DNA from: Candidatus Nomurabacteria bacterium
Lineage (GTDB): Bacteria > Patescibacteriota > Minisyncoccia > Phycocordibacterales > UBA9973
DNA length: 64,000 bases
Assembly: GCA_943348755.1 (NCBI GenBank)
Contig: CALQYS010000001.1
Location: 69,963 to 133,962, forward strand
Reading direction: 5' to 3'
Below, in pieces: positions 938 through 42,188 of the stretch; the stretch's first letter is position 1, and every line of letters begins with the position of its first letter. Both the position numbers and the translations under genes were made by a program. The notes beneath the pieces are model-generated. The model was not told the origin of the DNA, did no database searches, and saw only the letters and a list, made by a program, of their open reading frames with translations.

Positions 938-3591
938 AATTTATATTTTCTCTCCAAAAACCTTTCTATTTTCCTTCCGTCTCTTTTGAGCCAAGCGACG
1001 TTGCCTTCGAGCCGCTCGAGGACTTGCTGGATAGAGCGCTTGGCTCCTGGGGCATCGTGGGTGGTAAAGAATTTTTTAAAAGATTTGAGGTGTTTCTCTT
1101 CCGCGCTACTTGAAATAGCCTTCACGAGTCGGGCGAGGGTGTGTCCACCGTCCCCATAGCGGGCGACAAGCTGTACCCACTTCTTTTGTACAAAGTCGAG
1201 CCAGATGTCTCGACCGAGAGGGTTGGCGCCAACAGAGGAGAGGATGCCGATAGTGTCTTGTTTGCGGACATGTTCAGAGAAGGAAAATTCACAAGTTAGT
1301 TTTAATAGTTTGTCATCACAGAAATCACCCAAGGCGCTTCCGATTCTGTTTTTCTCTTCGTGTAATGTCTCTGCTTTGTATTTTTTGATAAAAGTGTCGT
1401 ATTCTTTCTGTCCGCCATGCTTCGCAATAATAGAATAAATAGCTCCGCGGAGGTCAGGATTTACATGTCCACCTGTCTGAAGGCTGGTGAACTTCTTTTT
1501 GGCTTCATCTATTACTTTTTGATCACCCGAACGTCCAGCGCGAGAGATGGCAAGGGAGCGTAGCAAGGCGTCAGTGTGTGCTTCACCTTGCTTCTTTTCC
1601 CAGCCTAATTTACGAGCAAGAGGGGAGAAAAGGGAGAGAGCAAGCTCGTCGAGTTTATTTTTTACTTTATCCTCTTTCGCCAATAAGGCCTCCAGCCTAC
1701 CTATACCCATGGCTAATTCGAGCCAGACGGTGTAATTATCTTCGTTTTTATATGCAGATAGGAACTCGAGAGCATCAGTCGTTGGCACTGTGCCTGCTTC
1801 TGCTAGAGCAAAGAGGTCTCTGATGATGCCGAGTCTGTCTCGCGCAGACAGGAGTTTCTTTTCTACCGGCATTTTTAGCTTTTCTAAAAGTTCTGTGGAA
1901 TATGCTGTTCTGAAAAATCCTGCCTCGCCAAAATTAACCTTTATCCAAAAATCTTGTAAATCAAACTTTTTGCCCCTCGTTGCAGGCACACTTTTTAAAA
2001 AGCCTTGCGCAGGCGGGTAGCCGAGCAGTTCGCTCCCAAAGCTTTGGGAGATAGATTGCTTTATAAAAAGTTGTGCCAAGAAAGAGGGGCTATGACCAAA
2101 AGAGACAGAAACGGGTACTTGCCATAGAGTCTTATCTTTTGTCTTTGCTTTTGACGCTGGACTTGCAAAGAATCTTTCTTGGGAAAGTTTTAATTTGTCA
2201 TTTTTCATCTCTGCTTTTATTACCGGATATCCGGGTTTGCCAGTCCAGTTTTTCATCATCTTTGCCACTGGCTTCTTGGAAACTTTTTCAAACGCTTCCC
2301 ACAAGTGAAAGGTCTCAGTATTTTTATAGCTATGCTTTTTGAGATAATGTCGCAGTCCATCGCGGAAATCTTTTTCACCGAGATAGTCTGCAAGCATGCG
2401 GATGACGGAAGCGCCTTTAGAATAGGACACTTCATCAAATATCTCGCCTATTTCATCAGGGTGATGCACGTGGATCTCGATCGGATGCGTGTGGAGCAGG
2501 GCGTCGAGGCGGAGCGCAGTGCCGAGCTCGTTGGTGGAGAATTGGGTCCAGATGTCCCAATGAGGGAAAAGTTTATCGATCGCGAGGTATTCTATGTATG
2601 AAGCAAAGCCTTCATTTAGCCATAGGTGCGTCCACCATTCCATGGTTACCAAGTTGCCAAACCATTGATGCGCTATTTCATGAGCTATAACGAGAGCCAC
2701 CCATTGCTTGTTGCCGATAGAGGAATGGTTTTCATCTACCAAAAGGGCTGATTCACGATATGTGATGGCACCCCAGTTTTCCATGGCTCCGGAAGTAAAG
2801 TCGGGGATGGCAATCATGTCGAGGACTGGCAGGGGATATGCGATGTCAAAATATTCTTCGTAAAATTCAAGGGTCTTCACGGCGCAGTCGAGGGCGAACT
2901 TCGCTTGGTGTTTTTTCCCTGGGGTGGTAAATACTCGCACCTGTACGTTATTTTTTGTTTTGGATTCTATATATTCAAAGTCTCCAATGATAAACGCTAA
3001 AAGGTAGGTAGACATTTTTGGCGTCGGAGAAAATTTAATTATTTCGTAGCCGGCTTCGTGTTCGGAAACAGAAACTGGCAAAGTGTTTGATATAGCAGTT
3101 TTACCTTTTGGAATGATGAGCGAGACATGGAAAACTGCTTTCTGGGCTGGTTCGTCAAAGCAGGGGAAGGCTCGACGGGCATCTGTGGCTTCAAACTGCG
3201 TCGTAGCCATGTGATGTTCTTTATCACCAATAGTATACTTGCTTCGATAGAAGCCCCGCATCTTGTCATTGAGGATACCTTTAAATACGATAGTTAATTT
3301 TATTTTTCCTTTGTTCTCTTTAGGAATATTTTTAGGGAAAGTGAAAGTGGCTGTCTCAGACTTTTCATCATAAGAAATTTTCGCGAAATCATCTTTAATT
3401 CGGGCTGTCTCTATCTCTATCTCTTTGCAGTGTAGCGTGAGTGTCTTTGTCGGTTTCAAAATAGAGAGAGTAATAGTCTCAATTCCCTCAAAAGTAAAAT
3501 TGTTTAGATCAGGCCGTAATTGAATATCGTACTCTATCGGAACGACGTTTTTAGATAAGCGTACGCTCTTTGCAGTTTGCTTCTTTTGCAT
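934..3591 (-). CDS. pepN: Aminopeptidase N (M1 family zinc metallopeptidase)
   Basis: GAMEN exopeptidase motif, HEIAHQWFGNLVT (HExxH) and the downstream LWLNEGFASY glutamate. ERAP1-like C-terminal domain present. Start moved to the internal Met (MQKKQTAKSV...) because the first 23 codons of the listed ORF are Cys-rich junk. Confidence 0.9.
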   Translation of the reverse strand: MQKKQTAKSVRLSKNVVPIEYDIQLRPDLNNFTFEGIETITLSILKPTKTLTLHCKEIEIETARIKDDFAKISYDEKSETATFTFPKNIPKENKGKIKLTIVFKGILNDKMRGFYRSKYTIGDKEHHMATTQFEATDARRAFPCFDEPAQKAVFHVSLIIPKGKTAISNTLPVSVSEHEAGYEIIKFSPTPKMSTYLLAFIIGDFEYIESKTKNNVQVRVFTTPGKKHQAKFALDCAVKTLEFYEEYFDIAYPLPVLDMIAIPDFTSGAMENWGAITYRESALLVDENHSSIGNKQWVALVIAHEIAHQWFGNLVTMEWWTHLWLNEGFASYIEYLAIDKLFPHWDIWTQFSTNELGTALRLDALLHTHPIEIHVHHPDEIGEIFDEVSYSKGASVIRMLADYLGEKDFRDGLRHYLKKHSYKNTETFHLWEAFEKVSKKPVAKMMKNWTGKPGYPVIKAEMKNDKLKLSQERFFASPASKAKTKDKTLWQVPVSVSFGHSPSFLAQLFIKQSISQSFGSELLGYPPAQGFLKSVPATRGKKFDLQDFWIKVNFGEAGFFRTAYSTELLEKLKMPVEKKLLSARDRLGIIRDLFALAEAGTVPTTDALEFLSAYKNEDNYTVWLELAMGIGRLEALLAKEDKVKNKLDELALSLFSPLARKLGWEKKQGEAHTDALLRSLAISRAGRSGDQKVIDEAKKKFTSLQTGGHVNPDLRGAIYSIIAKHGGQKEYDTFIKKYKAETLHEEKNRIGSALGDFCDDKLLKLTCEFSFSEHVRKQDTIGILSSVGANPLGRDIWLDFVQKKWVQLVARYGDGGHTLARLVKAISSSAEEKHLKSFKKFFTTHDAPGAKRSIQQVLERLEGNVAWLKRDGRKIERFLERKYKL

Positions 3592-3621
3592 GATTTTCAG
3601 TATATCTTTTTTTACGAAAAA

Positions 3622-3630
3622 TGCTAATAT
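3622..3630 (+). promoter_or_regulatory. Extended -10 element (TGcTAATAT) 6 nt upstream of the scpA ATG, implying a leaderless mRNA
   Basis: tgcTAATATacaaggATG; no usable leader or SD. Confidence 0.3.
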
Positions 3631-3636
3631 ACAAGG

Positions 3637-4398
3637 ATGAATACAGGTATCCCGACACAAACATTTCAGATAAAAACGACTGGTTTTGAAGGTCCGTTTG
3701 GGTTGCTTTTGGAGCTAGTAGAAAAGCGGAAACTTCATATTAATGATGTATCTTTGGCATCGGTTACAGAAGACTATTTGAACTATATAAATAAAATGGG
3801 GAATCTACATCCAGCCGAAGTGGCGAGTTTTGTGTTGGTGGCTTCTACTCTCATTTTAATAAAATCAAAATCCCTTTTGCCGAACCTGAGTCTGACCGGT
3901 GAAGAAGAAGGGGATATAAAGAATCTAGAAGAAAGGCTGCGCTTGTTTGAAATTTTCACAAAACTGGGTGTAAATGTGAAAAATATGTTTGGAGAGAAAA
4001 TAATCTTTGCTCCGCTCGAAAGGAAAAACGATGTCTTAGTATTTTTGCCAGATGAGCAGATTACAAAAGAAAGCATGATGGGTTTTGCCAAGGGCGCTCT
4101 TGGAAGTATGCCCAAAAAGGTATCTATGCCAGAAGTGGAGGTGCGAAAAGTCATCAGCATCGAAGAAATGATCAACAATCTGACGGAAAGAATCCAGAAT
4201 TCGGTGAAGATGAGCTTCAAAGATTTTGCAGGTAAGGCTAAAACGAAAGAAGAAAAGGTGTTTGTAATTGTGGGGTTTTTGGCGATGCTGGAATTGGTCA
4301 GAAGTGGTATATTAAACGTTGTGCAAGAGAGCGGTTTCGCGGATATTATTATTGAGAAGCAAGAAGGTCCGATTCAGTTGATGCAAGAAAATTTATAG
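3637..4398 (+). CDS. scpA: Segregation and condensation protein A
   Basis: LLELVEKRKLHINDVSLASVTEDYLNYI is a typical ScpA N-terminus; 253 aa; followed by scpB. Confidence 0.85.
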   Translation: MNTGIPTQTFQIKTTGFEGPFGLLLELVEKRKLHINDVSLASVTEDYLNYINKMGNLHPAEVASFVLVASTLILIKSKSLLPNLSLTGEEEGDIKNLEERLRLFEIFTKLGVNVKNMFGEKIIFAPLERKNDVLVFLPDEQITKESMMGFAKGALGSMPKKVSMPEVEVRKVISIEEMINNLTERIQNSVKMSFKDFAGKAKTKEEKVFVIVGFLAMLELVRSGILNVVQESGFADIIIEKQEGPIQLMQENL

Positions 4399-4476
4399 AA
4401 ATAAACTTTGCCAGAGCCTTATCCTTATGGCCTAACGCAGGAAAGTTTGATTTTTATAAATTTTCTCAGAATTAAA

Positions 4477-5043
4477 ATGATGAATTTAGAATCAAAAATA
4501 GAAGCTATACTTTTCTGGAAAGGGGAACCAATGTCACGCAAAAAGCTGGCAGAAGTTTTGAAAGTTGGTGAGCTTGAAATAAACGAAGGGATAGAAAAAC
4601 TGAAAGAAAATTTAAAACAGAGGGGGATAGTATTAATAGAAAAGGAAAATGAAATCGCTCTCGGCACAGCGCCGGAACTTTCAGATTTGATTGAAAATTT
4701 ACAAAAAGAAGAATTAAATAAAGATCTTTCAAAAGCAAGCCTGGAAACCTTATCAATAGTTTTATATAAAAATGGCGTCAGTCGAGCGGAAATAGACTAT
4801 ATCAGAGGAGTAAACTCTGGTTTTACTTTGCGCGCTTTATCTATCCGCGGATTAGTAGAAAGAATTACCGATCCTAAAGACAACAGGCGTTTCATCTATA
4901 AGCCAAGTTTTGAACTCTTGTCCTACATGGGCGTACAATCAGTGACGGAACTTCCTGACTATGCGGAAGTCCTGGGTTCTATCGATATCGCCGCGAAAAG
5001 TTTAGAAGAGGAATCTAATAATGAAGAAACAGGTACAAACTAA
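4477..5043 (+). CDS. scpB: Segregation and condensation protein B
   Basis: MMNLESKIEAILFWKGEPMSRKKLAEVL... is a ScpB winged-helix N-terminus. Start placed at the internal Met pair rather than the upstream ORF start. Confidence 0.8.
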   Translation: MMNLESKIEAILFWKGEPMSRKKLAEVLKVGELEINEGIEKLKENLKQRGIVLIEKENEIALGTAPELSDLIENLQKEELNKDLSKASLETLSIVLYKNGVSRAEIDYIRGVNSGFTLRALSIRGLVERITDPKDNRRFIYKPSFELLSYMGVQSVTELPDYAEVLGSIDIAAKSLEEESNNEETGTN

Positions 5044-6754
5044 AAATTGTCAAAACTGTAAAAATGACTTCGTAATAGAGCCGGATGATTTTGGTTTTTA
5101 TGAAAAAATAAAAGTTCCACCACCGACATTTTGTCCAGAATGTCGAAATCAGCGACGGCACTCCTGGAGAAATGACACTTCTTTATATAGTAGAACGTGT
5201 GATTTATGTAAAAAATCTGTAGTGACAATTTATTCTAAAGAATCAAGTGTGACTGTCTACTGTAATAAATGTTGGTGGGGAGACGGATGGGATCCCCTAA
5301 AGTATGCTCAAGATTATGACTTTTCTCGACCTTTTTTTGAACAGTTCAAAGAGCTCTCGTTAAAGGTTCCACATCTAGCTTTAGTGAATGATGATGGCAT
5401 CGCGAGCATGAATTGTGAATATACACAAGATTTTTCGTTTGCAAAAAATTGTTACATGGTTTTTATTGGATGGAAAGTTGAAAATGTTATGTATAGCTAT
5501 TACACTTCTGCTGGTAAAGACATGGTGGACTGCTTAGATATAAAATCAAAAAATGATTTTTTATACGAATGCATGCGATGTGCTACTTCGTATAGATTAA
5601 AATACTCTCAACAGTCAAAAAATTGTATAGATTCTCAATTTCTTTTTAATTGTATGAATTGTACGGATTGTTTTATGTGTACAATGCTTGTTGGTAAGAA
5701 ATATTTTTTTAAAAACAAACAATATTCTAAAGAAGAATATGAAAAAATATTAGAGAGTTATAAACTAGATACATTTAGTGGGGTAAAAAGAGCTCAGAAG
5801 GAGTACGATGAGTTCATCTTAAAATATCCTAAACGATACGTTTATGTTTTTAACAGTAAGGGTTGTATAGGAGATGCCATCTCGTATTCGAAAAATTCAC
5901 AATTTTGTTTTAACGTTAAAAAATCAGAAAATTGTAAGTGGGTAGATAATTCTGATTCCCCAAAAGATTCATATGATATGTCGACTGGGGGTGAACTCAG
6001 CGAATGCTACGAAGATATAACCTGTGATCATTCAAGCCGTAATTTATTTGGAATTTTTTCCTGGAAAAGTCAGGACATGGAATATACTCAGCATTGCCAT
6101 TCTTCCAAATCACTTTTTGGCTGTGTAGGTTTAAGAAATAAAAAATATTGCATTTTTAATAAACAATATTCCAAAGAGCAGTATGAAATACTGGTAGAAA
6201 AAATTAGAAAACAAATGGCAGAATTGCCGTATAAAGATGCTAATGGAATTGTATATAAATATGGAGAATTTTATCCTGCAGAACTATCGTATTTTGGCTA
6301 TAACGAAACAATAGCAAGTGAACGTTTTCCTTTAAGGAAAAATGAAGCTATTTCCAGAAATTTAAACTGGCAAGATAAGGTCCAAAAAACCACTGGCAAG
6401 GAAACTCTTAGGCCAGAAAATATTCCCGATAGCATAAACGAGGTAGGAGAATCTATATTAGACGAGGTACTGGCATGTATTGATTGCACAAGAAATTATA
6501 AAATTGTACCGAACGAGTTTATTTTCTACAAAAAAATGAGTGTTCCGATACCCAGGAGGTGTTTTTATTGCCGGCACGACGCCAGACTCAAGCGTCGCAA
6601 TCCCTTTAAGCTTTGGCATCGAAAATGTATGTGCGACAAGAGGGGGCATGCTAATCATGAAGGAAAATGTGAAATAGAGTTTGAAACTACTTACGCTCCG
6701 GAGCGTCCAGAAATTGTTTATTGCGAAAAATGTTATCAAGCAGAAGTATACTAG
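5021..6754 (+). CDS. Cysteine-rich protein, paralog A (about 35 Cys; N- and C-terminal zinc-ribbon modules; family unknown)
   Basis: 577 aa. N-terminus CQNCKNDFVIEPDDFGFYEKIKVPPPTFCPECRNQRR plus three more CxxC pairs. Central periodic [DN]C..C repeats. C-terminal CIDC...RRCFYCRH...YCEKCYQAEVY. Paralogous to 35888-37555 and 37603-39264. Start overlaps the scpB 3' end by 23 nt. Confidence 0.75.
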   Translation: MKKQVQTKNCQNCKNDFVIEPDDFGFYEKIKVPPPTFCPECRNQRRHSWRNDTSLYSRTCDLCKKSVVTIYSKESSVTVYCNKCWWGDGWDPLKYAQDYDFSRPFFEQFKELSLKVPHLALVNDDGIASMNCEYTQDFSFAKNCYMVFIGWKVENVMYSYYTSAGKDMVDCLDIKSKNDFLYECMRCATSYRLKYSQQSKNCIDSQFLFNCMNCTDCFMCTMLVGKKYFFKNKQYSKEEYEKILESYKLDTFSGVKRAQKEYDEFILKYPKRYVYVFNSKGCIGDAISYSKNSQFCFNVKKSENCKWVDNSDSPKDSYDMSTGGELSECYEDITCDHSSRNLFGIFSWKSQDMEYTQHCHSSKSLFGCVGLRNKKYCIFNKQYSKEQYEILVEKIRKQMAELPYKDANGIVYKYGEFYPAELSYFGYNETIASERFPLRKNEAISRNLNWQDKVQKTTGKETLRPENIPDSINEVGESILDEVLACIDCTRNYKIVPNEFIFYKKMSVPIPRRCFYCRHDARLKRRNPFKLWHRKCMCDKRGHANHEGKCEIEFETTYAPERPEIVYCEKCYQAEVY

Positions 6755-7596
6755 AGACACTCCGGATTAATGCTAAGCACGTAATCATTTATCAAATCAA
6801 AAGAAGGCACATATTCATCTCCATCAAATCCATCGATGTCTTCGTTGGTTATTAGTCTTTTGTATTCTCGGGTAAAATCTCGAGAAAGTGGTAGGTATGA
6901 CCAATGCCACTTTTCTTCATTGTAACCAGTCAGTCTAAAATCATTTTTTTCATTATACGTCTCGCAAAAGCCAAAGAGGGGAGCGTTTTTGACTAGCCAT
7001 GTATATACCTTTTCGCCTTCTTCTGTTTCAAAGAATTTTGGGGTTACACTATTTATATCTATTTCTGTGCCCCAATGGTGTCTCGAAGTACCGGGCACAG
7101 CACTGTAGTTTAATATTTTTTCGAATCTTTCCTGACCATCTGGAATACTTTTGGATAGATCTTTTCCATCCACAAAAATAGTGCCTTTCCACTTGCCATT
7201 CCAAAGATCTTTTTGATAAGCAAAATTCCTAGTGGCCGAAGTTATATTTAATTCTATATCCTCCTTTTCAGCAGTCTCTGCCATCTTTTCAAAAGCATCT
7301 AAGGCTTCTTTTCTCAAGTACATATTGTATCCAGCGATGGCGTATTTCAAAGGTACAAGAGTGAAATCCTTCCTTTTTGATGGATCAAATTTGCCAGTCA
7401 AATAAATCTTTTTTTCGATATCCTCCTTTGCTTTTTTTATAGCTGCTTCTTCTCTTAGAATTTTCTGATAATTTTCTTCGTTTTCTTTTTCTTGTCTTAT
7501 GTCTAAAAAGTCGCTAGTGAAATAAGGTACAAGAACCAGAAGCACAAGAACCAGTAAAAAGAGAGATGAAGTGAGGTTTAGGATGTGTTTTTTCAC
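6751..7596 (-). CDS. D-alanyl-D-alanine carboxypeptidase-like peptidase (M15/VanY family), membrane anchored
   Basis: N-terminal TM helix; SRHHWGTEIDI matches the VanY SxHxxGxAxD motif; downstream EEKWH (ExxH). Convergent 4-nt CTAG stop overlap with paralog A. Confidence 0.7.
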   Translation of the reverse strand: MKKHILNLTSSLFLLVLVLLVLVPYFTSDFLDIRQEKENEENYQKILREEAAIKKAKEDIEKKIYLTGKFDPSKRKDFTLVPLKYAIAGYNMYLRKEALDAFEKMAETAEKEDIELNITSATRNFAYQKDLWNGKWKGTIFVDGKDLSKSIPDGQERFEKILNYSAVPGTSRHHWGTEIDINSVTPKFFETEEGEKVYTWLVKNAPLFGFCETYNEKNDFRLTGYNEEKWHWSYLPLSRDFTREYKRLITNEDIDGFDGDEYVPSFDLINDYVLSINPECL

Positions 7597-7652
7597 TTAG
7601 AGACAATAACATATTGGTGTACTTTAATCAAAAAAATGCTATATTTATTTAT

Positions 7653-22777: not shown

Positions 22778-22826
22778 GCTTAAAACGAAAAGGACCCTGC
22801 ATCGCGCGATGCGCGCAATGCAGGGT
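22778..22826 (-). terminator. Intrinsic terminator (GC-rich hairpin plus U-tract) after the high-GC ORF
   Basis: Hairpin CCCTGCATCGCGCG-at-GCGCGCAATGCAGGG (14-bp stem, one mismatch) followed on the minus strand by UCCUUUUCGUUUUAAG. Confidence 0.5.
22781..22794. repeat. Direct repeat copy 1: TAAAACGAAAAGGA (identical 14-mer at 23765-23778)
   Basis: Exact 14/14 identity between the U-tract regions of the two terminators flanking the high-GC block. Confidence 0.7.
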
Positions 22827-22897
22827 ATCCTTGGTCGATCAGACGATTTCTCGTCCGGCCCAGAATCTACGTCTGAGCTCGGTGATGTGAGGCAGGC

Positions 22898-23566: not shown

Positions 23567-23723
23567 GCGTTTGTTTTTGTTGTATGTTTCTGATGACCAT
23601 CACGCGAACCTAAGTGGGTCCGTTTGTTGTGTGACAGTCAGCCAAATTACGATGTATTTACATGCATAATCTCGCCGACTGCCACAAATTTCACATCAAT
23701 TTTAAAGAACAAATAACTACGTT

Positions 23724-35029: not shown

Positions 35030-35857
35030 TTATTTAAAATATTTAACTGCGTTTTTAAAAATCTGCAATCCTGCTCCTTCTTTTTTCACCCCGCCATGGA
35101 GGGGCAAGCCTTCCTTATTTATCTGCCACAGTGGACTTTGATGTGAAAACATTGCTCTCTCAGGATGTGGCATCATCCCTAAAACCCTCCCATTATATGC
35201 TAAAACTCCCGCAATGTCATGGTCCGAGCCGTTTGGGTTATGTTCTAGATTTTGAAACTTGGCTATCTCTCCTTTTGTATAAGTAAAGGCGATCTGCCCG
35301 CCTTTTTTCATCTTTCGGTATTCTTTTTCAGAAATGACGTAGCGACCCTCGCCGTGCGCTATCGGTAACGATATTTTCTTGATGCCTGCGAGCCATGGGC
35401 TACTCACCCCGCCATGGCGGGGTGAACCCGTAACTTTTAGATCTACCCAACGATCCATATAGCGTCCGTTTTTGTTGTAGGTTAGAGCCCCTGGTAATAT
35501 TCCCAAGTTGGTAATTATCTGAAAACCATTACAAATGCCGATGACGAGGGTGTCCCGAGATAGAAATTCCTCGAGTTCTTTTGATAAATGATTTTTAAAC
35601 TTATTCGCGAAAGCTTTTCCACTGCCTGTATCGTCCCCATAGGAAAATCCTCCAGGGAAAGCCAAAATTTGATACTGAGAAAGCATTTGGGGCTTGGCGA
35701 TTAAGTCGTTTATATGCACGATGTCCGCCAGCCCTCCCGCACTCTCAAAAGCGAACTTCGTTTCTTCTTCGCAATTGAGTCCATATCCGGATAAAATTAT
35801 AATTTTTGGTTTTTTCATGTGATTTAATTCCCTCACCCCTTGCTTTCCCCTCTCCAT
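35030..35857 (-). CDS. purQ: FGAM synthase glutaminase subunit
   Basis: KIIILSGYGLNCEEET...CNGFQ class I GATase signature; 275 aa. Confidence 0.9.
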   Translation of the reverse strand: MERGKQGVRELNHMKKPKIIILSGYGLNCEEETKFAFESAGGLADIVHINDLIAKPQMLSQYQILAFPGGFSYGDDTGSGKAFANKFKNHLSKELEEFLSRDTLVIGICNGFQIITNLGILPGALTYNKNGRYMDRWVDLKVTGSPRHGGVSSPWLAGIKKISLPIAHGEGRYVISEKEYRKMKKGGQIAFTYTKGEIAKFQNLEHNPNGSDHDIAGVLAYNGRVLGMMPHPERAMFSHQSPLWQINKEGLPLHGGVKKEGAGLQIFKNAVKYFK

Positions 35858-35887: not shown

Positions 35888-37555
35888 TCAATACACCTCT
35901 TGCTGGTAACATTTCTCGCAGTAAATTTGGTATATTTTCTGATCCTCGGGTCTATAAGATGTTTGTATCAGATTACCACATTTAGCACAATTTCCACTCC
36001 ATAAGTCACGCGGGTTTCTTTTACTCATTCTGGCTTCATGTCGGCAGTTAAAGCACTTAGCTGGCAGGGCTAATCTATTCTTTTTATAAAAATTCACCTC
36101 TCTATTTATTAATCTGTAATTTTTCTCGCAATTTTTACAAGTTAGAATTTCATTAACTAATGCATCGCTGTATTCTTCAGGATTTTTAGGTAAATTTTCG
36201 TATTCTATTGTCCCCTGTCCAGTTGTGCTTGGTATATTATCTTTCCATTTAAAACCTTGCCTCGTAGCTTCCTCTTTTGTAATTGGCATGTACTCATTTA
36301 CTATCGCTTCATTATAAGCAAATGGGCTAATAAATGCTGGAAAGAATTTACCCCAGTCTCCACTTTCTTTCATCTGCGCGATTATTTTTTCTTTTAGCGT
36401 AAAGTATTCTTCCTTTGAATATTGTTTATTTAAAATACAGTAAGATTTCTTGCGTAGACCATAACATCCAAAAACTTCATTACAGTTGTGACAATTATTT
36501 GAGTAATAAATATTATGGCAATCTACTATCATCTCAGAGGCTATGGCTATGTTGCTGTTGCTTATAGTCATAGCCTGATAACATTCAGATAGATCGCTGG
36601 TGAAAGAAATATCATACGAATCTATGGCTTCTCTAACTGTAAAGCAATGCCTAGAGTTTTCACCGCTTTTTATATCAAAGGAATCATGTACATTGTGTGC
36701 ATTATATATATGGTTACCAGAAACATCATTATTGTGAGAGCCAAAGAAAGAGCGCTGAGGAGTTATTTTACGTAAACTCTCCATCTCTTTTAAAATATAT
36801 TCGATAGAAGACTTTTCATTTAGGGGGTGTTCTAATAAGAATTTTTTGTATTCTTCTTTTGTAACTTGTTTATTGAAAATATGATAGGACTTGTTTACTT
36901 GCCCCACGCATCCGATGCAATTCAAACAGTTTCGACAATCAAAAAGTCCAATGGAGTCTACACAAGCTTCACATTCTTGTGAATAGAAAAGTTTCGCTGA
37001 GCCTAGGCAATCAACACAGTCGTAACAAGATTCTGATTTAAATAAATATAAATTATCAATAGAATCTCGGCAATTCCAAACTATGTGTCCATAATCGCAG
37101 TCTTCGTTCTCAAGAGCACCAAAAAGTAAATAGCAATTTTTACAGTCAATTATTTGATTAGTGTAATCGCAATTAACACTTCTAACGGCATTACGAGCCG
37201 GATGTGGTACAGCGTTAAAAAGAAGAGCGAGTTGCTTAAAAAATGACTTACTTAGATCAACATCTACAGCATAATCCATGGGTTCCCAGCTATCCCCCCA
37301 CCAGATCTCATTATCATAAACTGGGAATTTTGTATCTTCGTTGTACATCGAGATGATCATTTTACCGGATTTACTGCAGGGTCTTTTGTATAAAGTCTTA
37401 AAATTCCTAAAGGATGCACGAAGTTGCTGACGACATTGTGGGCACTGTTCCGGGGCAGGTATTCCCATCTTTTCATAAAAGCCAAAATCATCCGGCTCGA
37501 TGACGAAATCTTCGTTGCACTTTTTACATATTCGATTTTCGCTCTTGTGTTCCAT
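35888..37555 (-). CDS. Cysteine-rich protein, paralog B
   Basis: 555 aa. N-terminus CKKCNEDFVIEPDDFGFYEKMGIPAPEQCPQCRQQLR; C-terminus ...CFNCRHEARMSKRNP...YCEKCYQQEVY. Same architecture as paralogs A and C; third N-terminal zinc ribbon is degenerate. Confidence 0.75.
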   Translation of the reverse strand: MEHKSENRICKKCNEDFVIEPDDFGFYEKMGIPAPEQCPQCRQQLRASFRNFKTLYKRPCSKSGKMIISMYNEDTKFPVYDNEIWWGDSWEPMDYAVDVDLSKSFFKQLALLFNAVPHPARNAVRSVNCDYTNQIIDCKNCYLLFGALENEDCDYGHIVWNCRDSIDNLYLFKSESCYDCVDCLGSAKLFYSQECEACVDSIGLFDCRNCLNCIGCVGQVNKSYHIFNKQVTKEEYKKFLLEHPLNEKSSIEYILKEMESLRKITPQRSFFGSHNNDVSGNHIYNAHNVHDSFDIKSGENSRHCFTVREAIDSYDISFTSDLSECYQAMTISNSNIAIASEMIVDCHNIYYSNNCHNCNEVFGCYGLRKKSYCILNKQYSKEEYFTLKEKIIAQMKESGDWGKFFPAFISPFAYNEAIVNEYMPITKEEATRQGFKWKDNIPSTTGQGTIEYENLPKNPEEYSDALVNEILTCKNCEKNYRLINREVNFYKKNRLALPAKCFNCRHEARMSKRNPRDLWSGNCAKCGNLIQTSYRPEDQKIYQIYCEKCYQQEVY

Positions 37556-37602: not shown

Positions 37603-39264
37603 CTAGTATATCTCCTGTTGATAACATTTCTCACAGTATACTATTTCTGGACGATCTGGCGAATAGCTTGTTTCGAATTCATTCATACAGTCTTGATTCA
37701 TGCATTTTTGATGCCAAAGCTTTCTTTCACCAGCAAGTTTTATTCTCTTTTCATGTCTACAATTTGGACATTTTCGTGGTATAGGCAAGCCCATCTTTCG
37801 GTAAAGATTGAGCTCGTAAGGCACTATTTTGTAATTTTTTCCACATTCACAAACCAAAACCTCTTTCATTATTTCGTCTTTTACATCATCTATGTTGTCT
37901 GGCAAAAGATCCATATCTACGGTTTCCTGCTTGTATGTGTTTGTATTTTTTTCCCACCAAGGTAGAGAAAGTTTTTCACAATCCTCCTTTGTTAATGGAA
38001 AATATTCTTGAGCTACTGTCTCATTATATCCAAAATTACTTATACCGATCGGGAAAAATTCTCCCCATTCGCCAGTTTTTTTCATATGTTCTATTATTTT
38101 ATTTTTAAGGATGAGATATTCTTCTTTGGAATATTGTTTGTTTAAAATACAATATTTCTTTTTTGACATGCCTATACAACCGAATAAATCAGAAGAATTG
38201 TTGCATTTATCGCAATACCAAATGTCATTCGAGTAATGTGAGGCATTGCAGAAGCCGGAGCTGCCTAAATTCAAAGTGCTTATTAGTTCGATATTAAAAG
38301 ATGGTTTATATAAGGAAAAATCTAGGTCATAACATTCTTTCGCGTCCAATACATCGCATAGATATTTTCCATTTTCAGCATTACTGACATCGAAACTCTC
38401 TTTTACATTCTTACAATTAAAAAGATCATCTCCTGTGCAGTTCGTACTATTTATTAGATTAGCGAACTTCGTAATCGCTTTTTTGGAATACTTCCCGAAT
38501 TCTTTTTTCAGATTTTCTAAAGCAGAAAAAGATTTTTTATTAAAGCCCGAAACAATTTTATTGTATTCTTCCCTGCTGTATGGTTTATTAAAAATATGGT
38601 ATGACTTATTTCTCAAGTTCCAGCACCCAAAACAATCGGTACAACTCCTACAATCATACATAAAATGACAATTGCTGCAGTCCGTGCACTTATTTAGAAA
38701 AGATGAGCCGTAGATTTTATGGCAATTCACGCATTCGTAATTTAATTCAGAATTGTAAACAAAAGAGCAATCTATGCAGTCCTTGGAGTATTTAATAAAT
38801 TTACAAAAGTAGCAATATTCGTTTTTCTCTCCAGCTATATCAAAGTAACAATAATTATCATCTCCGCAATAGCTTACATAATCGCTATTTTTACAATTTA
38901 CGATGTCCAGTGAAAGTGTCGGGACTTTTTTATAAAGATCTTTAAATTGTTCAAAAAATGGCTTGGAAAAATTAAAATCTTTCCCATACGAAAGCGGGTT
39001 AGACTTATCGCTCCACCAGCAGGATGGACACCAGACGGCTTGCTCCTTATCTCCATGATAATATGAAATTATTTTTTGATTACATGAATTACAATTACGC
39101 CAGTAAAAAACCCTTTCGTTTCTGATGGCGAGTCTGCGCTGATGCCGGCATTCTGGGCAAAATGTCGGTGGTGGGACTTTTATTTTTTCATAAAATCCAA
39201 AATCATCCGGTTCGATCACGAATTCCTTTTTACAATTCTGGCAAATTTTATTTTCCGCTTTCAT
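37603..39264 (-). CDS. Cysteine-rich protein, paralog C
   Basis: 553 aa. N-terminus CQNCKKEFVIEPDDFGFYEKIKVPPPTFCPECRHQRR is near-identical to paralog A. Start codon overlaps the purL stop (TAATG). Confidence 0.75.
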   Translation of the reverse strand: MKAENKICQNCKKEFVIEPDDFGFYEKIKVPPPTFCPECRHQRRLAIRNERVFYWRNCNSCNQKIISYYHGDKEQAVWCPSCWWSDKSNPLSYGKDFNFSKPFFEQFKDLYKKVPTLSLDIVNCKNSDYVSYCGDDNYCYFDIAGEKNEYCYFCKFIKYSKDCIDCSFVYNSELNYECVNCHKIYGSSFLNKCTDCSNCHFMYDCRSCTDCFGCWNLRNKSYHIFNKPYSREEYNKIVSGFNKKSFSALENLKKEFGKYSKKAITKFANLINSTNCTGDDLFNCKNVKESFDVSNAENGKYLCDVLDAKECYDLDFSLYKPSFNIELISTLNLGSSGFCNASHYSNDIWYCDKCNNSSDLFGCIGMSKKKYCILNKQYSKEEYLILKNKIIEHMKKTGEWGEFFPIGISNFGYNETVAQEYFPLTKEDCEKLSLPWWEKNTNTYKQETVDMDLLPDNIDDVKDEIMKEVLVCECGKNYKIVPYELNLYRKMGLPIPRKCPNCRHEKRIKLAGERKLWHQKCMNQDCMNEFETSYSPDRPEIVYCEKCYQQEIY

Positions 39265-42188
39265 TATTGTGAATTAGAAAATTTATGATAAATGGTATTT
39301 AATTTTTTAACATTTGTTTCAACTATTTTGTTTTTGCCATTCACTATAGTTATTTTCCCACCCTTCTCTACTTTGCCGAGTTTTGTGTAGGAGATTCCTA
39401 CAAGCACTTTTTCAAATTCTTTTGTGTTTTTAGGAGAAACAGAAACAAGAATCCTTCCTTGGCTTTCAGAGAAAAGTTTAGCATCTATTGTTGATGCGCT
39501 TCCAGCCAGATCTTTGAGGTTCACCCCACACCCCACATTTCCTCCGACACAGGCTTTAGCGAGTGCTATGCCCAAGCCTCCAGATGTCACAGAAAGAGAA
39601 GAGGCCACTAATTCTTTTTCGATACATTTTTCTAAAGCAAGATAAACTTTTAGATTTTTCTCTAAATTAACTTTCGGAACATTATTCCCAACTCCACCCA
39701 ACATTTTAAAATATTCACCACCTCCAAGCTCGTCTTTCGTTTCTCCAAGTAGATAAATTACATCACCACCGTTTTTGAATTCAGGCGAAACGGTCTTGTA
39801 CAAGTCAGGCATCACGCTGATAGCCGAGATGAGTAGCGTCGGCGGTATAGATATAGCCACCGGATTACCTTTTTCATCATAACCTTTAAAGTCGTTGAAC
39901 ATGCTGTCCTTGCCGGAAATAAAGGGCGTGCCGTAGCCCACAGCATAGTCGTAGCAGGCTTTGACGGATTCTACGAGCTGGTAAAGCCTTTTTGGATCAT
40001 TTGATGAGCACCAGCAGAAGTTGTCGAGTATGGCTAGGTGCTTGAGTGCACCACCGGCTGCCACGATGTTTCTGACAGCAGTATCGAGCGCGCAGGCTGC
40101 CATGTGATAAGTGCTGATGTCTCCATATGAAGGATAGGTGCTGGATGAAAGGACGACTGCTTTATTTGAGCTCAAAACAGGGCGGAAAACTTGAGCATCA
40201 GTGTTGATGCGTCCAGCACCTGAAAGTGGTTTCAAGACGGATGATGCCTGCACTTCATGGTCGTATTGTTGTGAAATAAAAGAAAATCCACCAATGTTTT
40301 TTTCTCCAAGTAAATTTTCTAAAACTTTTGTTCGAGACATACCCTTTGGCATTTCTGGCTCAGGATTTTTTTGCTCTACTTTGGTCGTAGTCAGATGGTG
40401 TTTCGGCAGTCCATTGTGCAGAAATTCCATTTCCATGTCCATGATTTTTTTACCATGCCATTCAATTATTACTTTTCCAGAATCTGTAAATTCACCTATT
40501 ACTGTTGATTCTACTCCCCTACTTTCCATTAATTTTTGGAACGCAGGCCATTTGTCTTTTGGGACAGATAGAGTCATGCGTTCTTGTGATTCGGATATCC
40601 AAATCTCCCATGGTGTAAGTCCTGGGTATTTCAAAGGTACTTTTTCTAGGAAAACTTTTACTCCGCCACACTCCCTTGCCATCTCTGCCACCGAAGAGGA
40701 AAGTCCTCCTGCCCCATTATCTGTGATGCTATTATATAGACCCATATCACGAGCTTCCTTTACTATTGCATCGCTTAATTTTTTTTGAGTTATCGGGTCA
40801 CCGATTTGCACAGCAGTAGCTGGTGAAGTTGAATCTATTTTAACTGACGAAAAGGTGGCTCCATGAATACCATCTAGCCCCACTTTCCCACCAACCATTA
40901 CCACATAGTCACCATTTTTCGCGCCTTTTTCGTGTGAAAATTTATTTTGTACTTTTTTTGGAATCAAGCCCACAGTACCAGCAAAGACTAAGGGCTTACC
41001 TCTAAATCTGTCGTCGTATTTTATAAATCCAGATAAGGTTGGAATTCCAGAACAATTTCCTCCGACATTGATACCTTTTATTACGCCATCCATAATCCTC
41101 TTCCCGGATAGCATCGGCTGGGTAAGGTTTTTATCTCGGAAAAATTTTCTTTCGTCTTCTGGATATCCAAAACAAAATCCATATGTATTAACTACGGGTT
41201 TAGCGCCTAAGCCAAATCCTATAGCATCACGATTAACTCCTCCTATGCCAGTAACTGCTCCGCCAAATGGATCGAGCGCCGAAGGGCTGTTGTGTGTCTC
41301 CACCTTGTGCGTCACTAGATAATTTTCATCAAAAACTATGCCGCCAGCATTATCAGAAAATACAGAAACACAAAAATCATCTTTTCCTTTTTGTTTGCGT
41401 ATTAAATTTGTAGCACCCTTGATGTATGTTTTATATAGGCCATCTTTAACCTGTAGCCCTTCTGCATCTATCGAGTTAGCAAAAATAGTATGCTTGCAGT
41501 GTTCAGACCACGTCTGCGCCAGAGACTCTAGTTCTATATCTGTCGGGTCCCTTTTTAATGTTTCAAAATATGCTTTGATAGCTTTCATGGAAGCTAGATC
41601 AAGCGCGAGTGGGCCACGGCGTGTGCCTGATTCATCCATTATTCCTTCTCCACCTATTTTTATAAGCTCGTCGTCGGGTGCTGATAGAGGAACGGTAACC
41701 ACGGGGGTTCTTTTATTTAAAATTACCTCCGGAACTTTATTTAGAAAATTTATTTTCCTGTTTTTAACTTCTACGATCGTCGCTTTCTCTATCAGCGGAT
41801 TATACATAGCGTTCGCAATTTCTTTCACCTCTTCCGCTTTGCCAGAAACAAGGAAAATCTTTGAGGTATAAAAGTTAAGAGGTTTGTCTGCTTTTAGTTT
41901 AAATAAATCCGTCGCTATTTCTTTGACCGTATGAGCCACATTGTCAGTCACTCCAGGTAGCAAGCTTATTTCAATGGCAAAATTAAATTTCTCTATTTTC
42001 GGAGATTCATCTATAAAAGACTCCTCTAAAATAGGGTTCGTGAGTGCTCGAGCCAGTGTTTCAAGTTCTTTTTTTGAAAATTCAGAATCGATCAGATAGG
42101 AGTCAATCTGTTTTGCCCCGTTTTTTAGCCCGCCTGCAACGTTGTGCGTAGCACTTCGGGCAGGCATCACATATATGCGCGAAATCAT
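39264..42188 (-). CDS. purL: FGAM synthase II with N-terminal PurS-like domain(s) fused (PurS-PurL)
   Basis: 974 aa. Small-PurL core starts near LSAPDDELIKIGGEG...WSEHCKHTIF. The preceding roughly 165 aa contain a PurS-like unit (GKAEEVKEIANAMYNPLIEKATIVEV) and a second degenerate one. Confidence 0.9.
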   Translation of the reverse strand: MISRIYVMPARSATHNVAGGLKNGAKQIDSYLIDSEFSKKELETLARALTNPILEESFIDESPKIEKFNFAIEISLLPGVTDNVAHTVKEIATDLFKLKADKPLNFYTSKIFLVSGKAEEVKEIANAMYNPLIEKATIVEVKNRKINFLNKVPEVILNKRTPVVTVPLSAPDDELIKIGGEGIMDESGTRRGPLALDLASMKAIKAYFETLKRDPTDIELESLAQTWSEHCKHTIFANSIDAEGLQVKDGLYKTYIKGATNLIRKQKGKDDFCVSVFSDNAGGIVFDENYLVTHKVETHNSPSALDPFGGAVTGIGGVNRDAIGFGLGAKPVVNTYGFCFGYPEDERKFFRDKNLTQPMLSGKRIMDGVIKGINVGGNCSGIPTLSGFIKYDDRFRGKPLVFAGTVGLIPKKVQNKFSHEKGAKNGDYVVMVGGKVGLDGIHGATFSSVKIDSTSPATAVQIGDPITQKKLSDAIVKEARDMGLYNSITDNGAGGLSSSVAEMARECGGVKVFLEKVPLKYPGLTPWEIWISESQERMTLSVPKDKWPAFQKLMESRGVESTVIGEFTDSGKVIIEWHGKKIMDMEMEFLHNGLPKHHLTTTKVEQKNPEPEMPKGMSRTKVLENLLGEKNIGGFSFISQQYDHEVQASSVLKPLSGAGRINTDAQVFRPVLSSNKAVVLSSSTYPSYGDISTYHMAACALDTAVRNIVAAGGALKHLAILDNFCWCSSNDPKRLYQLVESVKACYDYAVGYGTPFISGKDSMFNDFKGYDEKGNPVAISIPPTLLISAISVMPDLYKTVSPEFKNGGDVIYLLGETKDELGGGEYFKMLGGVGNNVPKVNLEKNLKVYLALEKCIEKELVASSLSVTSGGLGIALAKACVGGNVGCGVNLKDLAGSASTIDAKLFSESQGRILVSVSPKNTKEFEKVLVGISYTKLGKVEKGGKITIVNGKNKIVETNVKKLNTIYHKFSNSQ

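What the first reader, a model, noticed from the sequence alone, without database searches (positions are those of the whole stretch)
5021..6754. Third paralog of the Cys-rich family is translationally coupled to scpA-scpB
Paralog A (577 aa) starts 23 nt inside the 3' end of scpB and is followed by a convergent gene. It therefore belongs to the scpAB transcription unit. Its N-terminal 45 residues are near-identical to paralog C at the purine locus (VPPPTFCPECR). One family is thus wired into both a chromosome-condensation operon and a nucleotide-biosynthesis operon. That argues for an abundant general factor (for example Zn-dependent nucleic-acid or protein binding) rather than a pathway-specific enzyme.
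Basis: partly seen in the sequence, partly recalled or inferred. Interest (0 to 1): 0.6.

Follow-up and report, generated by a model that had tools for sequence, protein, structure and literature searches.

The report
Multi-zinc solenoid protein lodged behind scpAB
The gene is real and does overlap the end of scpB, but it is one copy of a very large, unnamed family of zinc-rich repeat proteins from tiny uncultured (Patescibacteria) bacteria that settles into many different operons, so its position behind scpAB says little about what it does.

Summary
Observation confirmed. ORF 5021-6754 (+, 577 aa) starts 23 nt inside scpB, has a GAGG 9 nt upstream, and its stop overlaps the stop of a convergent VanY-type peptidase gene. 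Two paralogs (38-42% identical) sit between purL and purQ.

Interpretation only partly supported. The family is a huge Patescibacteria (mainly Parcubacteria) expansion, not a single general factor:
- at least 3,717 clusters at 50% identity;
- 177 copies in 79 related loci, often in same-strand arrays of 2-7.

Only 1 of 13 orthologs of this copy sits directly behind scpB. Others are cut off by a convergent gene or lie in other contexts. The purine position is equally labile. The commonest neighbours elsewhere are VirD4/HerA-like ATPases and grpE/dnaK/dnaJ, none of which is in this window.

A confident AlphaFold2 model (pLDDT 92) shows two internally duplicated halves. A pair of zinc fingers at each end (zf_Tbcl plus CxxC-x17-CxxC) flanks two homologous 12-residue-repeat beta-solenoids that carry a cysteine ladder. 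No solved structure matches the whole protein, and no Pfam or NCBIfam model covers the core.

Best reading, with function inferred: a cytoplasmic, non-enzymatic multi-zinc binding scaffold with constant basic zinc-finger ends and paralog-specific solenoid surfaces. Here it is expressed by read-through from scpAB.

The parts
3637..4398 (+). scpA (kleisin), first gene of the unit
   Evidence: Pfam SMC_ScpA 5.7e-18
4408..5043 (+). scpB; stop TAA at 5041-5043
   Evidence: Pfam SMC_ScpB 7.7e-38; sequence
5007..5012 (+). Shine-Dalgarno-like AGAGGA inside scpB, 9 nt before the ATG
   Evidence: sequence read directly
5021..6754 (+). Paralog A (FamA), 577 aa, cytoplasmic, 35 Cys; overlaps scpB by 23 nt
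5048..5158 (+). Zn finger 1 (residues 10-46): C10,C13,C38,C41, zf_Tbcl-type, followed by a basic Arg-rich helix
   Evidence: Pfam zf_Tbcl 16.3 bits, below the cut-off of 24; these Cys are 97-99% conserved; segment 1-50 has pI 9.1
5198..5272 (+). Zn finger 2 (residues 60-84): C60-x2-C63-x17-C81-x2-C84
   Evidence: spacing read from the sequence; these Cys are 62-85% conserved; aligns to the zf_Tbcl_2 finger of the neighbour ATPase, E 0.079, not significant
5405..5725 (+). beta-solenoid I (residues ~129-235): 12-residue repeats; Cys at every third residue over 178-220
5726..5824 (+). helical hairpin (residues 236-268), the most paralog-specific segment
5825..6169 (+). beta-solenoid II (residues ~269-383), homologous to solenoid I
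   Evidence: 31% identity, E 9e-10; DNA repeat at a 444-nt spacing
6170..6466 (+). capping helix plus conserved linker with the motif YGEFFP..SPF.YNET.A.EYFPL (residues 384-482)
6467..6604 (+). Zn finger 3 (residues 483-528): C486,C489,C514,C517, zf_Tbcl-type, net charge +8
   Evidence: N-terminal and C-terminal finger pairs are 30% identical, E 2e-14
6605..6751 (+). Zn finger 4 (residues 529-577): C536,C550-x17-C568,C571
   Evidence: paralog B matches zf_Tbcl_2 and TIGR04272 here, below the cut-offs
6751..7596 (-). convergent VanY-type D-Ala-D-Ala carboxypeptidase gene; its stop overlaps the FamA stop by 4 nt
   Evidence: Pfam VanY 4.8e-33
37603..39264 (-). Paralog C, 553 aa; its ATG overlaps the purL stop by 1 nt
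35888..37555 (-). Paralog B, 555 aa, between paralog C and purQ
39264..42188 (-). purL (FGAM synthase), upstream neighbour of paralog C
   Evidence: Pfam AIRS, AIRS_C and FGAR-AT_linker
35030..35857 (-). purQ, downstream neighbour of paralog B
   Evidence: Pfam GATase_5 1.5e-71

Best explanation
Paralog A is one member of a very large, uncharacterised, Patescibacteria-specific family of ~570-aa cytoplasmic multi-zinc proteins.

Architecture. The protein is an internal duplication. A zinc-finger pair (zf_Tbcl type plus CxxC-x17-CxxC type) sits at each end. Between them are two homologous narrow beta-solenoids built of 12-residue coils, with a ladder of cysteines spaced three residues apart. Each solenoid is capped by a 'NKQYSKEEY' helix.

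Expression in this genome. The gene has no room for signals of its own. It is most likely made by read-through from the scpA promoter, with ribosomes re-initiating at an SD-like site inside scpB.

Meaning of the linkage. It is incidental. Family members habitually lodge, co-oriented and tightly packed, inside whatever operon they land in: scpAB, pur, grpE/dnaK/dnaJ, mraY/ftsW, tRNA-synthetase genes. Copy number and position turn over between close relatives.

Proposed mode of action (inferred, not shown). It is a non-catalytic binding scaffold. The family-wide conserved, basic, Arg-rich zinc-finger pairs dock to a common partner, most likely nucleic acid or possibly a shared protein machine. 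The first halves of the solenoids and the inter-solenoid hairpin diverge between paralogs but are conserved within each orthogroup, and would give each paralog its own target.
For: Shown:
- Gene, start, overlap and SD-like site.
- Paralogy.
- Family size: at least 7,957 clusters at 90% identity (the scoring cap) and 3,717 clusters at 50% identity, almost all 540-600 aa.
- 177 copies in 79 genome loci. 97 of 98 neighbouring family pairs are on the same strand, and 64 of 98 gaps are under 300 nt.
- Same-strand, short-gap embedding next to unrelated genes: 74 of 99 upstream non-family neighbours.
- Labile scpB and pur contexts, and a decayed copy in L004.
- No transmembrane segment or signal peptide in 171 members; median Cys content 5.9%.
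- AF2 model with pLDDT 91.9 and pTM 0.91.
- Internal duplications at E 9e-10 and 2e-14, with a 444-nt DNA repeat spacing in all three paralogs.
- Conserved Cys quartets and the 12-residue register.
- Zinc-finger segments 1 and 3 are basic (pI 9.1 and 10.0; net +4 and +8), and R42, R46, R518 and R522 are nearly invariant.
- Zinc-finger modules are the most conserved family-wide (0.51-0.53). Solenoid first halves and the hairpin are the least conserved (0.28-0.30), yet conserved within the orthogroup (0.56-0.74).
Against: - No direct evidence of expression, metal content or any ligand.
- Metal binding in the solenoid ladder is read from Cys spacing only. Model coordinates could not be inspected, and paralog A has lost two ladder Cys (L181, S190).
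- The zinc fingers score below Pfam and NCBIfam cut-offs in the three window paralogs.
- An enzyme with an unrecognised active site cannot be excluded: N380 and R518 are invariant, and the conserved YGEFFP..YNET motif has no assigned role.
- The recurrent ATPase and Hsp70 neighbourhood could mean a specific system rather than generic lodging.
- An internal promoter inside scpB cannot be excluded. A 9/12 sigma-70-like match lies at 4910-4939.
Confidence: 0.5

Rival explanations
1. One reading: the family is a single abundant general factor whose placement in the scpAB and purine operons reflects co-regulated function with chromosome condensation and nucleotide supply.
For: - 23-nt overlap with scpB and 1-nt overlap of paralog C with purL.
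- The same ScpB-Fam arrangement occurs in L004, and another paralog overlaps scpB in L008.
- PurL-Fam-PurQ recurs in L025, L032 and L163.
Against: - Only 1 of 13 orthologs of A directly follows scpB. In 3 loci a convergent gene intervenes, and 5 loci have no scpAB within 8 kb.
- A 75%-identical ortholog of C lies between argS and ileS, and a 60% relative lies outside an uninterrupted purL-purQ pair.
- The family has dozens of orthogroups and arrays of up to 7 copies.
- Upstream neighbours are highly diverse.
Confidence: 0.08
2. The family is the diversified client, adaptor or substrate set of a clade-specific machine. That machine would be built from the neighbouring soluble VirD4/TraG/HerA-like P-loop ATPases (the long form carries a zf_Tbcl_2 finger and a disordered tail) and the Hsp70 system. 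The dispersed copies in this window would be outliers of that system.
For: - ATPase genes occur in 25 of 79 family-centred loci (37 genes). 24 are directly adjacent to a family gene on the same strand.
- A recurrent super-locus: S9>GrpE>Fam(n)>PaaX<DnaK>ATPase>Fam(n)>ATPase>DnaJ>(Fam).
- The long ATPase form has a strong zf_Tbcl_2 match, 1e-12 to 1e-14. This is the same finger type as family fingers 2 and 4.
- L008 joins ScpB>Fam>Fam(A ortholog)>ATPase>DnaJ.
Against: - In the ATPase-centred scan only 10 of 80 loci have a family gene. All 10 are among the 22 closest ATPase matches.
- The DnaK-ATPase-ATPase-DnaJ backbone exists without the family (L085).
- None of these genes is in the 64-kb window.
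- The association could be inherited synteny of one clade.
- Finger similarity between the family and the ATPase is not significant pairwise (E 0.079).
Confidence: 0.2
3. The proteins act as zinc or thiol-redox buffers, or as redox-switched holdases (Hsp33-like logic). Copy number would serve dosage, and the Hsp70 neighbourhood would reflect stress function.
For: - About 6% Cys and at least four conserved Cys4 sites plus a Cys ladder.
- Frequent position next to grpE, dnaK and dnaJ.
Against: - Paralogs are only ~40% identical but each orthogroup is conserved, which argues for specificity rather than dosage.
- Many conserved non-Cys motifs.
- Ladder Cys are only 30-60% conserved in part of the ladder and are lost in paralog A.
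- No similarity to Hsp33 or metallothioneins in any search.
Confidence: 0.07
4. The family is an enzyme with an unrecognised active site, for example one acting on a polymer bound along the solenoid.
For: - Invariant N380 and R518, and nearly invariant D88, W90, D100, E154, D170, D319, Y427-N428-E429 and W450.
- High conservation within orthogroups, 60-80%.
Against: - No Pfam, NCBIfam or PDB homology outside the fingers.
- No nucleotide- or cofactor-binding motif was found.
- Most conserved residues are aromatic or structural.
Confidence: 0.1
5. The gene is a selfish or mobile element that inserts between operon genes.
For: Insertion between conserved neighbours (purL|purQ, scpB|mraY, grpE|dnaK) with variable copy number.
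Against: - Copies are 38-42% identical, so they are ancient paralogs.
- Gene ends overlap the neighbours, leaving no room for terminal repeats. No flanking inverted or direct repeats were found.
- No transposase, integrase or nuclease domain.
- Absent from viral contigs.
Confidence: 0.03

Closest known systems
Pfam PF13451 zf_Tbcl ('probable treble clef domain') and PF23477 zf_Tbcl_2 / TIGR04272 CxxC-x17-CxxC small zinc-ribbon proteins
   Same: Fingers 1 and 3 carry the C-x2-C ... F-x-I-x(4)-F-Y-x-K ... P-x-P-x2-C-x2-C-R pattern. Fingers 2 and 4 have the exact CxxC-x17-CxxC spacing. Some family members pass the Pfam thresholds (precomputed column).
   Different: Those families are short stand-alone or accessory modules with no assigned function. 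Here two finger pairs flank a ~390-aa double solenoid, and the window paralogs score below the curated cut-offs.
[not shown]
   Same: Very narrow solenoid with short coils (about 12 residues) and regularly spaced Cys lining the core.
   Different: Antifreeze proteins are small, secreted and disulfide-stapled, with Thr-rich ice-binding faces. This family is cytoplasmic, has zinc fingers at both ends, and its Cys spacing (i, i+3, i+6, i+9) suggests metal sites rather than disulfides (inference).
Curli subunit CsgA and left-handed beta-helix (hexapeptide-repeat) proteins
   Different: 3-10% identity. Foldseek finds nothing significant (best E 9.5e-3, TM below 0.1). No Hexapep Pfam hit, no signal peptide, and a different coil length.
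Lineage-specific expansions of solenoid or repeat binding proteins, for example pentapeptide-repeat proteins in cyanobacteria (own knowledge)
   Same: Many paralogs per genome, a conserved scaffold with variable surface, and no catalytic motif.
   Different: Unrelated sequence. Here the scaffold is flanked by four zinc fingers, and copies form co-oriented tandem arrays inside housekeeping operons of very small genomes.
LIM-type double zinc-finger adaptor domains
   Same: The C-terminal W..C...C..fe.T......YC..CY segment aligns to the second finger of CRP LIM domains.
   Different: E 0.6-1.6, not significant. This is a resemblance, not evidence of membership.

Membership tests
SMC-ScpAB condensin operon or complex (as a functional partner) | Conserved co-occurrence and gene adjacency with scpA-scpB across relatives | tested here: not met
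   1 of 13 orthologs directly follows scpB. In 3 loci a convergent VanY gene lies between, and 5 loci have no scpAB within 8 kb.
SMC-ScpAB condensin operon or complex (as a functional partner) | Sequence or fold relation to kleisin (ScpA) or winged-helix ScpB | tested here: not met
   [not shown]
Pfam PF13451 zf_Tbcl | HMM score at or above the gathering cut-off of 24 bits | tested here: not met
   Paralog A 16.3 bits, paralog B 21.8 bits, paralog C no hit. Several other family members carry PF13451 in the precomputed annotation.
Pfam PF13451 zf_Tbcl | Two CxxC knuckles about 24 residues apart with the F-Y-x-K / P-x-P-x2-C-x2-C-R signature | tested here: met
   C10,C13...C38,C41 and C486,C489...C514,C517. 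These Cys are 90-99% conserved across 139 sequences.
Pfam PF23477 zf_Tbcl_2 / NCBIfam TIGR04272 CxxC-x17-CxxC | CxxC-x17-CxxC spacing | tested here: met
   C60-x2-C63-x17-C81-x2-C84 and C550-x17-C568-x2-C571, read from the sequence.
Pfam PF23477 zf_Tbcl_2 / NCBIfam TIGR04272 CxxC-x17-CxxC | HMM score at or above the cut-off (27 bits / 36 bits) | tested here: not met
   Paralog B scores 21.6 and 17.7 bits. Paralogs A and C have no hit.
Hexapeptide-repeat left-handed beta-helix transferases and gamma-carbonic anhydrases | Hexapeptide repeat ([LIV]-G-x4), 18-residue coils, Pfam Hexapep match | tested here: not met
   [not shown]
Curli CsgA amyloid subunits | Sec signal peptide, secreted, Q/N-rich ~20-residue repeats | tested here: not met
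   [not shown]
Known anti-phage defence proteins or phage proteins | Match to PADLOC or PHROG models; presence on viral contigs | tested here: not met
   PADLOC gives no hit. The only PHROG hit is weak: phrog_15341, 2.5e-6, over 57 residues of paralog B, function unknown. No relatives on IMG/VR contigs.
DnaJ-type zinc-finger co-chaperones | J domain and CXXCXGXG repeats | tested here: not met
   No DnaJ, DnaJ_CXXCXGXG or DnaJ_C hit in the three paralogs. True DnaJ genes are separate neighbours in other loci.
Zinc-binding protein (general) | Stoichiometric zinc bound by the Cys quartets | not testable with these tools
   Needs metal analysis of purified protein. Only the Cys patterns and their conservation are shown.

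The most novel reading that the evidence does not exclude
The family would be a previously undescribed protein class: a double beta-solenoid whose narrow 12-residue coils are stapled from inside by metal-binding cysteine quartets, bracketed by two treble-clef finger pairs. Together with the zf_Tbcl_2-bearing VirD4/HerA-like ATPases embedded in the grpE-dnaK-dnaJ locus, it would form a Patescibacteria-specific machine. In that machine a battery of diversified paralogs serves as target-specific adaptors or cargo, for nucleic-acid handling, proteostasis or host interaction. The scpAB- and pur-linked copies would be dispersed members of that battery.
Probability: 0.15. Interest if true: 0.75.

Novelty: new variant of a known kind. 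Interest (0 to 1): 0.45.

Why it matters
Patescibacteria have genomes of well under 1 Mb (my own knowledge, not measured here), yet many carry arrays of two to seven ~1.7-kb copies of this gene. Two MAGs show at least 8-9 copies in the few loci retrieved. A family that occupies a visible fraction of such a streamlined genome, is conserved at 60-80% within orthogroups, and has no name, no Pfam model for its core and no structural relative is a clear gap in the annotation of this large bacterial radiation.

For this particular finding the practical lesson is negative. Operon position cannot be used for guilt-by-association here, because the family lodges in many unrelated operons and moves between close relatives.

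The predicted fold, with cysteines every third residue in a 12-residue coil, would be a new way to stabilise a solenoid if confirmed.

Tried and rejected
- Family libraries. Pfam, NCBIfam, PADLOC and PHROGs gave nothing beyond sub-threshold finger hits.
- Solved structures by sequence. Single-sequence and 139-sequence-profile searches of the PDB gave only non-significant Rpo10 and LIM matches.
- Foldseek against the PDB: nothing significant.
- The AlphaFold-database library was unavailable, so annotated structural relatives outside the PDB were not checked.
- Viral contigs: no relatives.
- Literature: five searches returned nothing on this family or on PF13451, PF23477 or TIGR04272.
- Promoter and terminator scan of 3300-7800: counts no higher than in shuffles, so uninformative.
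- Gene conversion between A and C at the N-terminus: rejected (85% nucleotide identity, 59% third-position identity).
- Mobile-element idea: rejected (no flanking repeats, ancient divergence).
- Obligate ATPase partnership: weakened by the ATPase-centred scan, in which 10 of 80 loci have a family gene.
- ATPase, DnaK, DnaJ and GrpE were searched for in the window and are absent.
Full report
**1. The observation**

The window holds an ATG-initiated ORF at 5021..6754 (+) of 577 aa. The upstream genes are scpA (3637..4398, Pfam SMC_ScpA 5.7e-18) and scpB (4408..5043, SMC_ScpB 7.7e-38).

- The scpB stop codon is TAA at 5041-5043, so the new ORF starts 23 nt inside scpB. AGAGGA at 5007-5012 lies 9 nt before the ATG.
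- 5021 is the first start codon after the upstream in-frame stop. It is also the only one that keeps the invariant Cys10 and Cys13.
- Orthologs begin at equivalent positions. An independent gene call on the 86-kb source contig (Logan ERR5863124_8612) gives the same gene.
- The downstream gene (6751..7596, -) is a VanY-type peptidase (4.8e-33). It is convergent, and the two stop codons overlap by 4 nt.
- A consensus scan finds no more promoter- or terminator-like sites in 3300-7800 than in shuffled sequence.

Co-transcription with scpAB, followed by re-initiation at the overlap, is therefore the simplest reading for this genome. It is inferred, not shown.

**2. The paralogs**

BLASTP and tblastn find two further copies in tandem on the minus strand: 37603..39264 (553 aa, 42% identical, E 2e-149) and 35888..37555 (555 aa, 38%, E 2e-142).

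- They sit between purL (39264..42188) and purQ (35030..35857). The ATG of paralog C overlaps the purL stop by one base.
- The N-terminal similarity of A and C is real: 34 of 37 residues over C10-R46. Nucleotide identity is 85% and third-position identity only 59%.
- That module is the most conserved part of the whole family. The similarity therefore reflects selection, not a special A-C relationship.

**3. Size and spread of the family**

The best 120 are all full-length and 61-78% identical.
- The exhaustive search of 50%-identity representatives finds 3,717 clusters at E<=1e-3 and 1,460 at E<=1e-30, nearly all 520-600 aa.
- Named sources are Parcubacteria-group MAGs: Nomurabacteria, Azambacteria, Giovannonibacteria, Staskawiczbacteria, Paceibacterota and Minisyncoccia. 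The paralog C search adds a few MAGs labelled Peregrinibacteria and Uhrbacteria.
- All are annotated 'hypothetical' or 'zinc-ribbon domain-containing'.
- No relative is found on IMG/VR viral contigs.

**4. Genomic behaviour**

A genome scan returned 79 loci holding 177 family copies.

- Array sizes: 28 loci have 2 copies, 12 have 3, 7 have 4, 1 has 5, 3 have 6 and 1 has 7.
- 97 of 98 neighbouring family pairs are on the same strand, and 64 of 98 gaps are under 300 nt.
- Next to non-family genes the copies are also co-oriented and tightly packed. 74 of 99 upstream neighbours are on the same strand with a gap under 150 nt, and 16 overlap. Longest-ORF starts were used, so overlaps may be somewhat over-counted.
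- Upstream neighbours are diverse: ATPase 15, GrpE 5, DnaJ 4, ScpB 3, and many singletons.

**5. Is the scpAB link conserved?**

Clustering the loci-derived proteins defines the orthogroup of paralog A: 13 members at 51-70% identity. Their contexts are:

| Locus | Arrangement |
|---|---|
| L004 | Repeats the window (ScpB-Fam-VanY<) and carries a decayed second copy between VanY and MraY |
| L005, L010, L012 | Convergent VanY lies between ScpB and the ortholog, which then precedes mraY |
| L007 | A different peptidase gene lies between |
| L008 | A different paralog (42%) overlaps scpB by 14 nt, followed by the A ortholog, an ATPase and dnaJ |
| L013 | Another copy lies in front of the ortholog |
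| L002, L003, L006, L009, L011 | No scpAB within 8 kb |

A 67%-identical relative on an 840-kb contig lies in an array with ATPases and a nucleotidyltransferase. The coupling to scpB is therefore a local accident of a turnover-prone spot between scpB and mraY.

**6. Is the purine link conserved?**

- PurL-Fam-PurQ recurs in L025, L032 and L163, with one copy rather than two.
- A 75%-identical ortholog of C lies in an array between argS and ileS.
- A 60% relative lies outside an uninterrupted purL-purQ-purF run.

**7. Recurrent neighbours elsewhere**

Clustering all 1,017 ORFs of the 79 loci gives one dominant partner: a soluble P-loop ATPase matching TrwB_AAD_bind, DUF87 and TraG-D_C.

- There are 37 such genes in 25 loci, and 24 are directly adjacent to a family gene on the same strand.
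- The long form (690-866 aa) carries a strong zf_Tbcl_2 finger (1e-12 to 1e-14) and a long K/E/P-rich tail. The short form (~490 aa) does not.
- Many loci share a super-locus: S9>GrpE>Fam(n)>PaaX-like<DnaK>ATPase>Fam(n)>ATPase>DnaJ>(Fam)>Arginase/CysS.
- Seen from the ATPase side, the link is clade-limited. Only 10 of 80 ATPase-centred metagenome loci hold a family gene. All 10 are among the 22 closest ATPase matches, and DnaK-ATPase-ATPase-DnaJ exists without the family.
- None of these genes is in the window.

This is suggestive of a system but is equally compatible with inherited synteny.

**8. Structure**

The three window paralogs give only sub-threshold finger hits in Pfam and NCBIfam: zf_Tbcl, zf_Tbcl_2 and TIGR04272. 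PADLOC gives none and PHROGs nothing meaningful. PDB sequence and profile searches give nothing significant.

With a 139-sequence diverse alignment, AlphaFold2 gives pLDDT 91.9 and pTM 0.91. The layout is:

| Residues | Element |
|---|---|
| 10-46 | Finger 1 |
| 60-84 | Finger 2, exact CxxC-x17-CxxC spacing |
| 105-115 | Helix |
| ~129-235 | Solenoid I |
| 237-266 | Helical hairpin |
| ~269-383 | Solenoid II |
| 385-401 | Helix |
| 414-438 (within a 403-482 linker) | Conserved motif YGEFFP..SPF.YNET.A.EYFPL |
| 486-517 | Finger 3 |
| 536-571 | Finger 4 |

- The two finger pairs are homologous (30% identity, E 2e-14) and so are the two solenoids (31%, E 9e-10). The duplication is visible as a 444-nt DNA repeat spacing in all three paralogs.
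- The repeat period is 12 residues. Over residues 178-220 the family has Cys at every third position.
- Conserved Cys quartets: 10/13/38/41 and 486/489/514/517 at 90-99%; 536/550/568/571 at 98-99%; 60/63/81/84 at 62-85%; 202/211/214/217/220 at 77-95%.
- No member has a transmembrane segment or signal peptide, and median Cys content is 5.9%.
- That the ladder binds metal is my inference from the spacing and the cytoplasmic location.

**9. Mechanism**

Finger segments 1 and 3 are basic (net +4 and +8). The nearly invariant residues after the second knuckle are arginines: R42, R46, R518 and R522.

Family-wide conservation is highest in the fingers and the end of solenoid II (0.51-0.53). It is lowest in the first halves of both solenoids and the hairpin (0.28-0.30). 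Those segments are nonetheless conserved within the A orthogroup (0.56-0.74) and hold most orthogroup-specific positions.

I therefore favour a non-catalytic binding scaffold with constant docking ends, most likely for nucleic acid, and paralog-specific solenoid surfaces. This is inference. Rivals are an adaptor or cargo set for the ATPase/Hsp70 locus, a redox or zinc buffer, or an unrecognised enzyme.

**10. Verdict**

The gene is a new, unannotated member of a large uncharacterised family with a distinctive predicted architecture. The specific scpAB coupling is ordinary compact-genome gene packing.

Five literature searches found no description of the family or of its finger domains.

Noticed in passing
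window 18820-42188: Nearly complete de novo purine pathway plus the guaA/guaB/purA branches, clustered in a Patescibacteria-type genome. Order: purB, purC, purM, purE, purH, guaA, guaB, purA, purD, orf245, purN, purF, purQ, FamB, FamC, purL. From my own knowledge this group usually lacks the pathway. The pur genes have GC 0.38-0.47; the lodged family genes have 0.34-0.36 and orf245 has 0.31.
   Followed up: partly
window 22800-23600 (orf222 at 22898-23566, -): An island of about 750 bp with GC 0.55-0.65 in a window averaging 0.40 GC, between purE and purH. It holds a 222-aa ORF with GC3 0.74 and no Pfam hit. It may be foreign DNA or an assembly chimera.
   Followed up: partly
window 32235-32972 (-): A 245-aa ORF with no Pfam hit and very low GC (0.31) sits between purN and purD. 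In L025 a family copy occupies the same slot.
   Followed up: no
L004 5676-5967: Decayed family copy between VanY and MraY: a 48-aa N-terminal finger ORF plus a 32-aa C-terminal finger ORF. It lies exactly where L005, L010 and L012 keep the intact ortholog, which is direct evidence of gene death at this spot.
   Followed up: yes
L085 903-7493; also L018-L021, L057, L087, L088: Two soluble VirD4/TraG/HerA-like P-loop ATPases are embedded between dnaK and dnaJ. One carries a zf_Tbcl_2 finger and a long disordered K/E/P-rich tail. The arrangement occurs even where the Cys-rich family is absent, which is an unusual make-up for an Hsp70 operon.
   Followed up: partly
L020, L022, L031, L033, L041, L068, L087, L088: A PaaX-like HTH/Cas2-like-domain gene lies on the opposite strand just upstream of dnaK. 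From my own knowledge this is where hrcA is normally found, so it is a candidate replacement heat-shock regulator.
   Followed up: no
window 35085-35104 and 35404-35426 (inside purQ): Two copies, 318 nt apart, of a GC-rich 20-nt palindromic sequence (TTCACCCCGCCATGGAGGGG / CCCCGCCATGGCGGGGTGAA) lie within the purQ coding region.
   Followed up: no
window 7597-7613 and 3589-3660: Divergent gene pairs VanY/MraY and PepN/ScpA are separated by only ~17-50 nt once likely true starts are used, so promoters must lie inside coding sequence. FamA and VanY are convergent with overlapping stop codons and no terminator.
   Followed up: no
L047 and L053 (record titles): Two family-bearing contigs are binned as 'Gammaproteobacteria' (2.2 kb) and 'Burkholderiales' (268 kb). 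Many others are auto-labelled 'uncultured Candidatus Saccharibacteria'. These are probably mis-binned or mislabelled Parcubacteria contigs.
   Followed up: no
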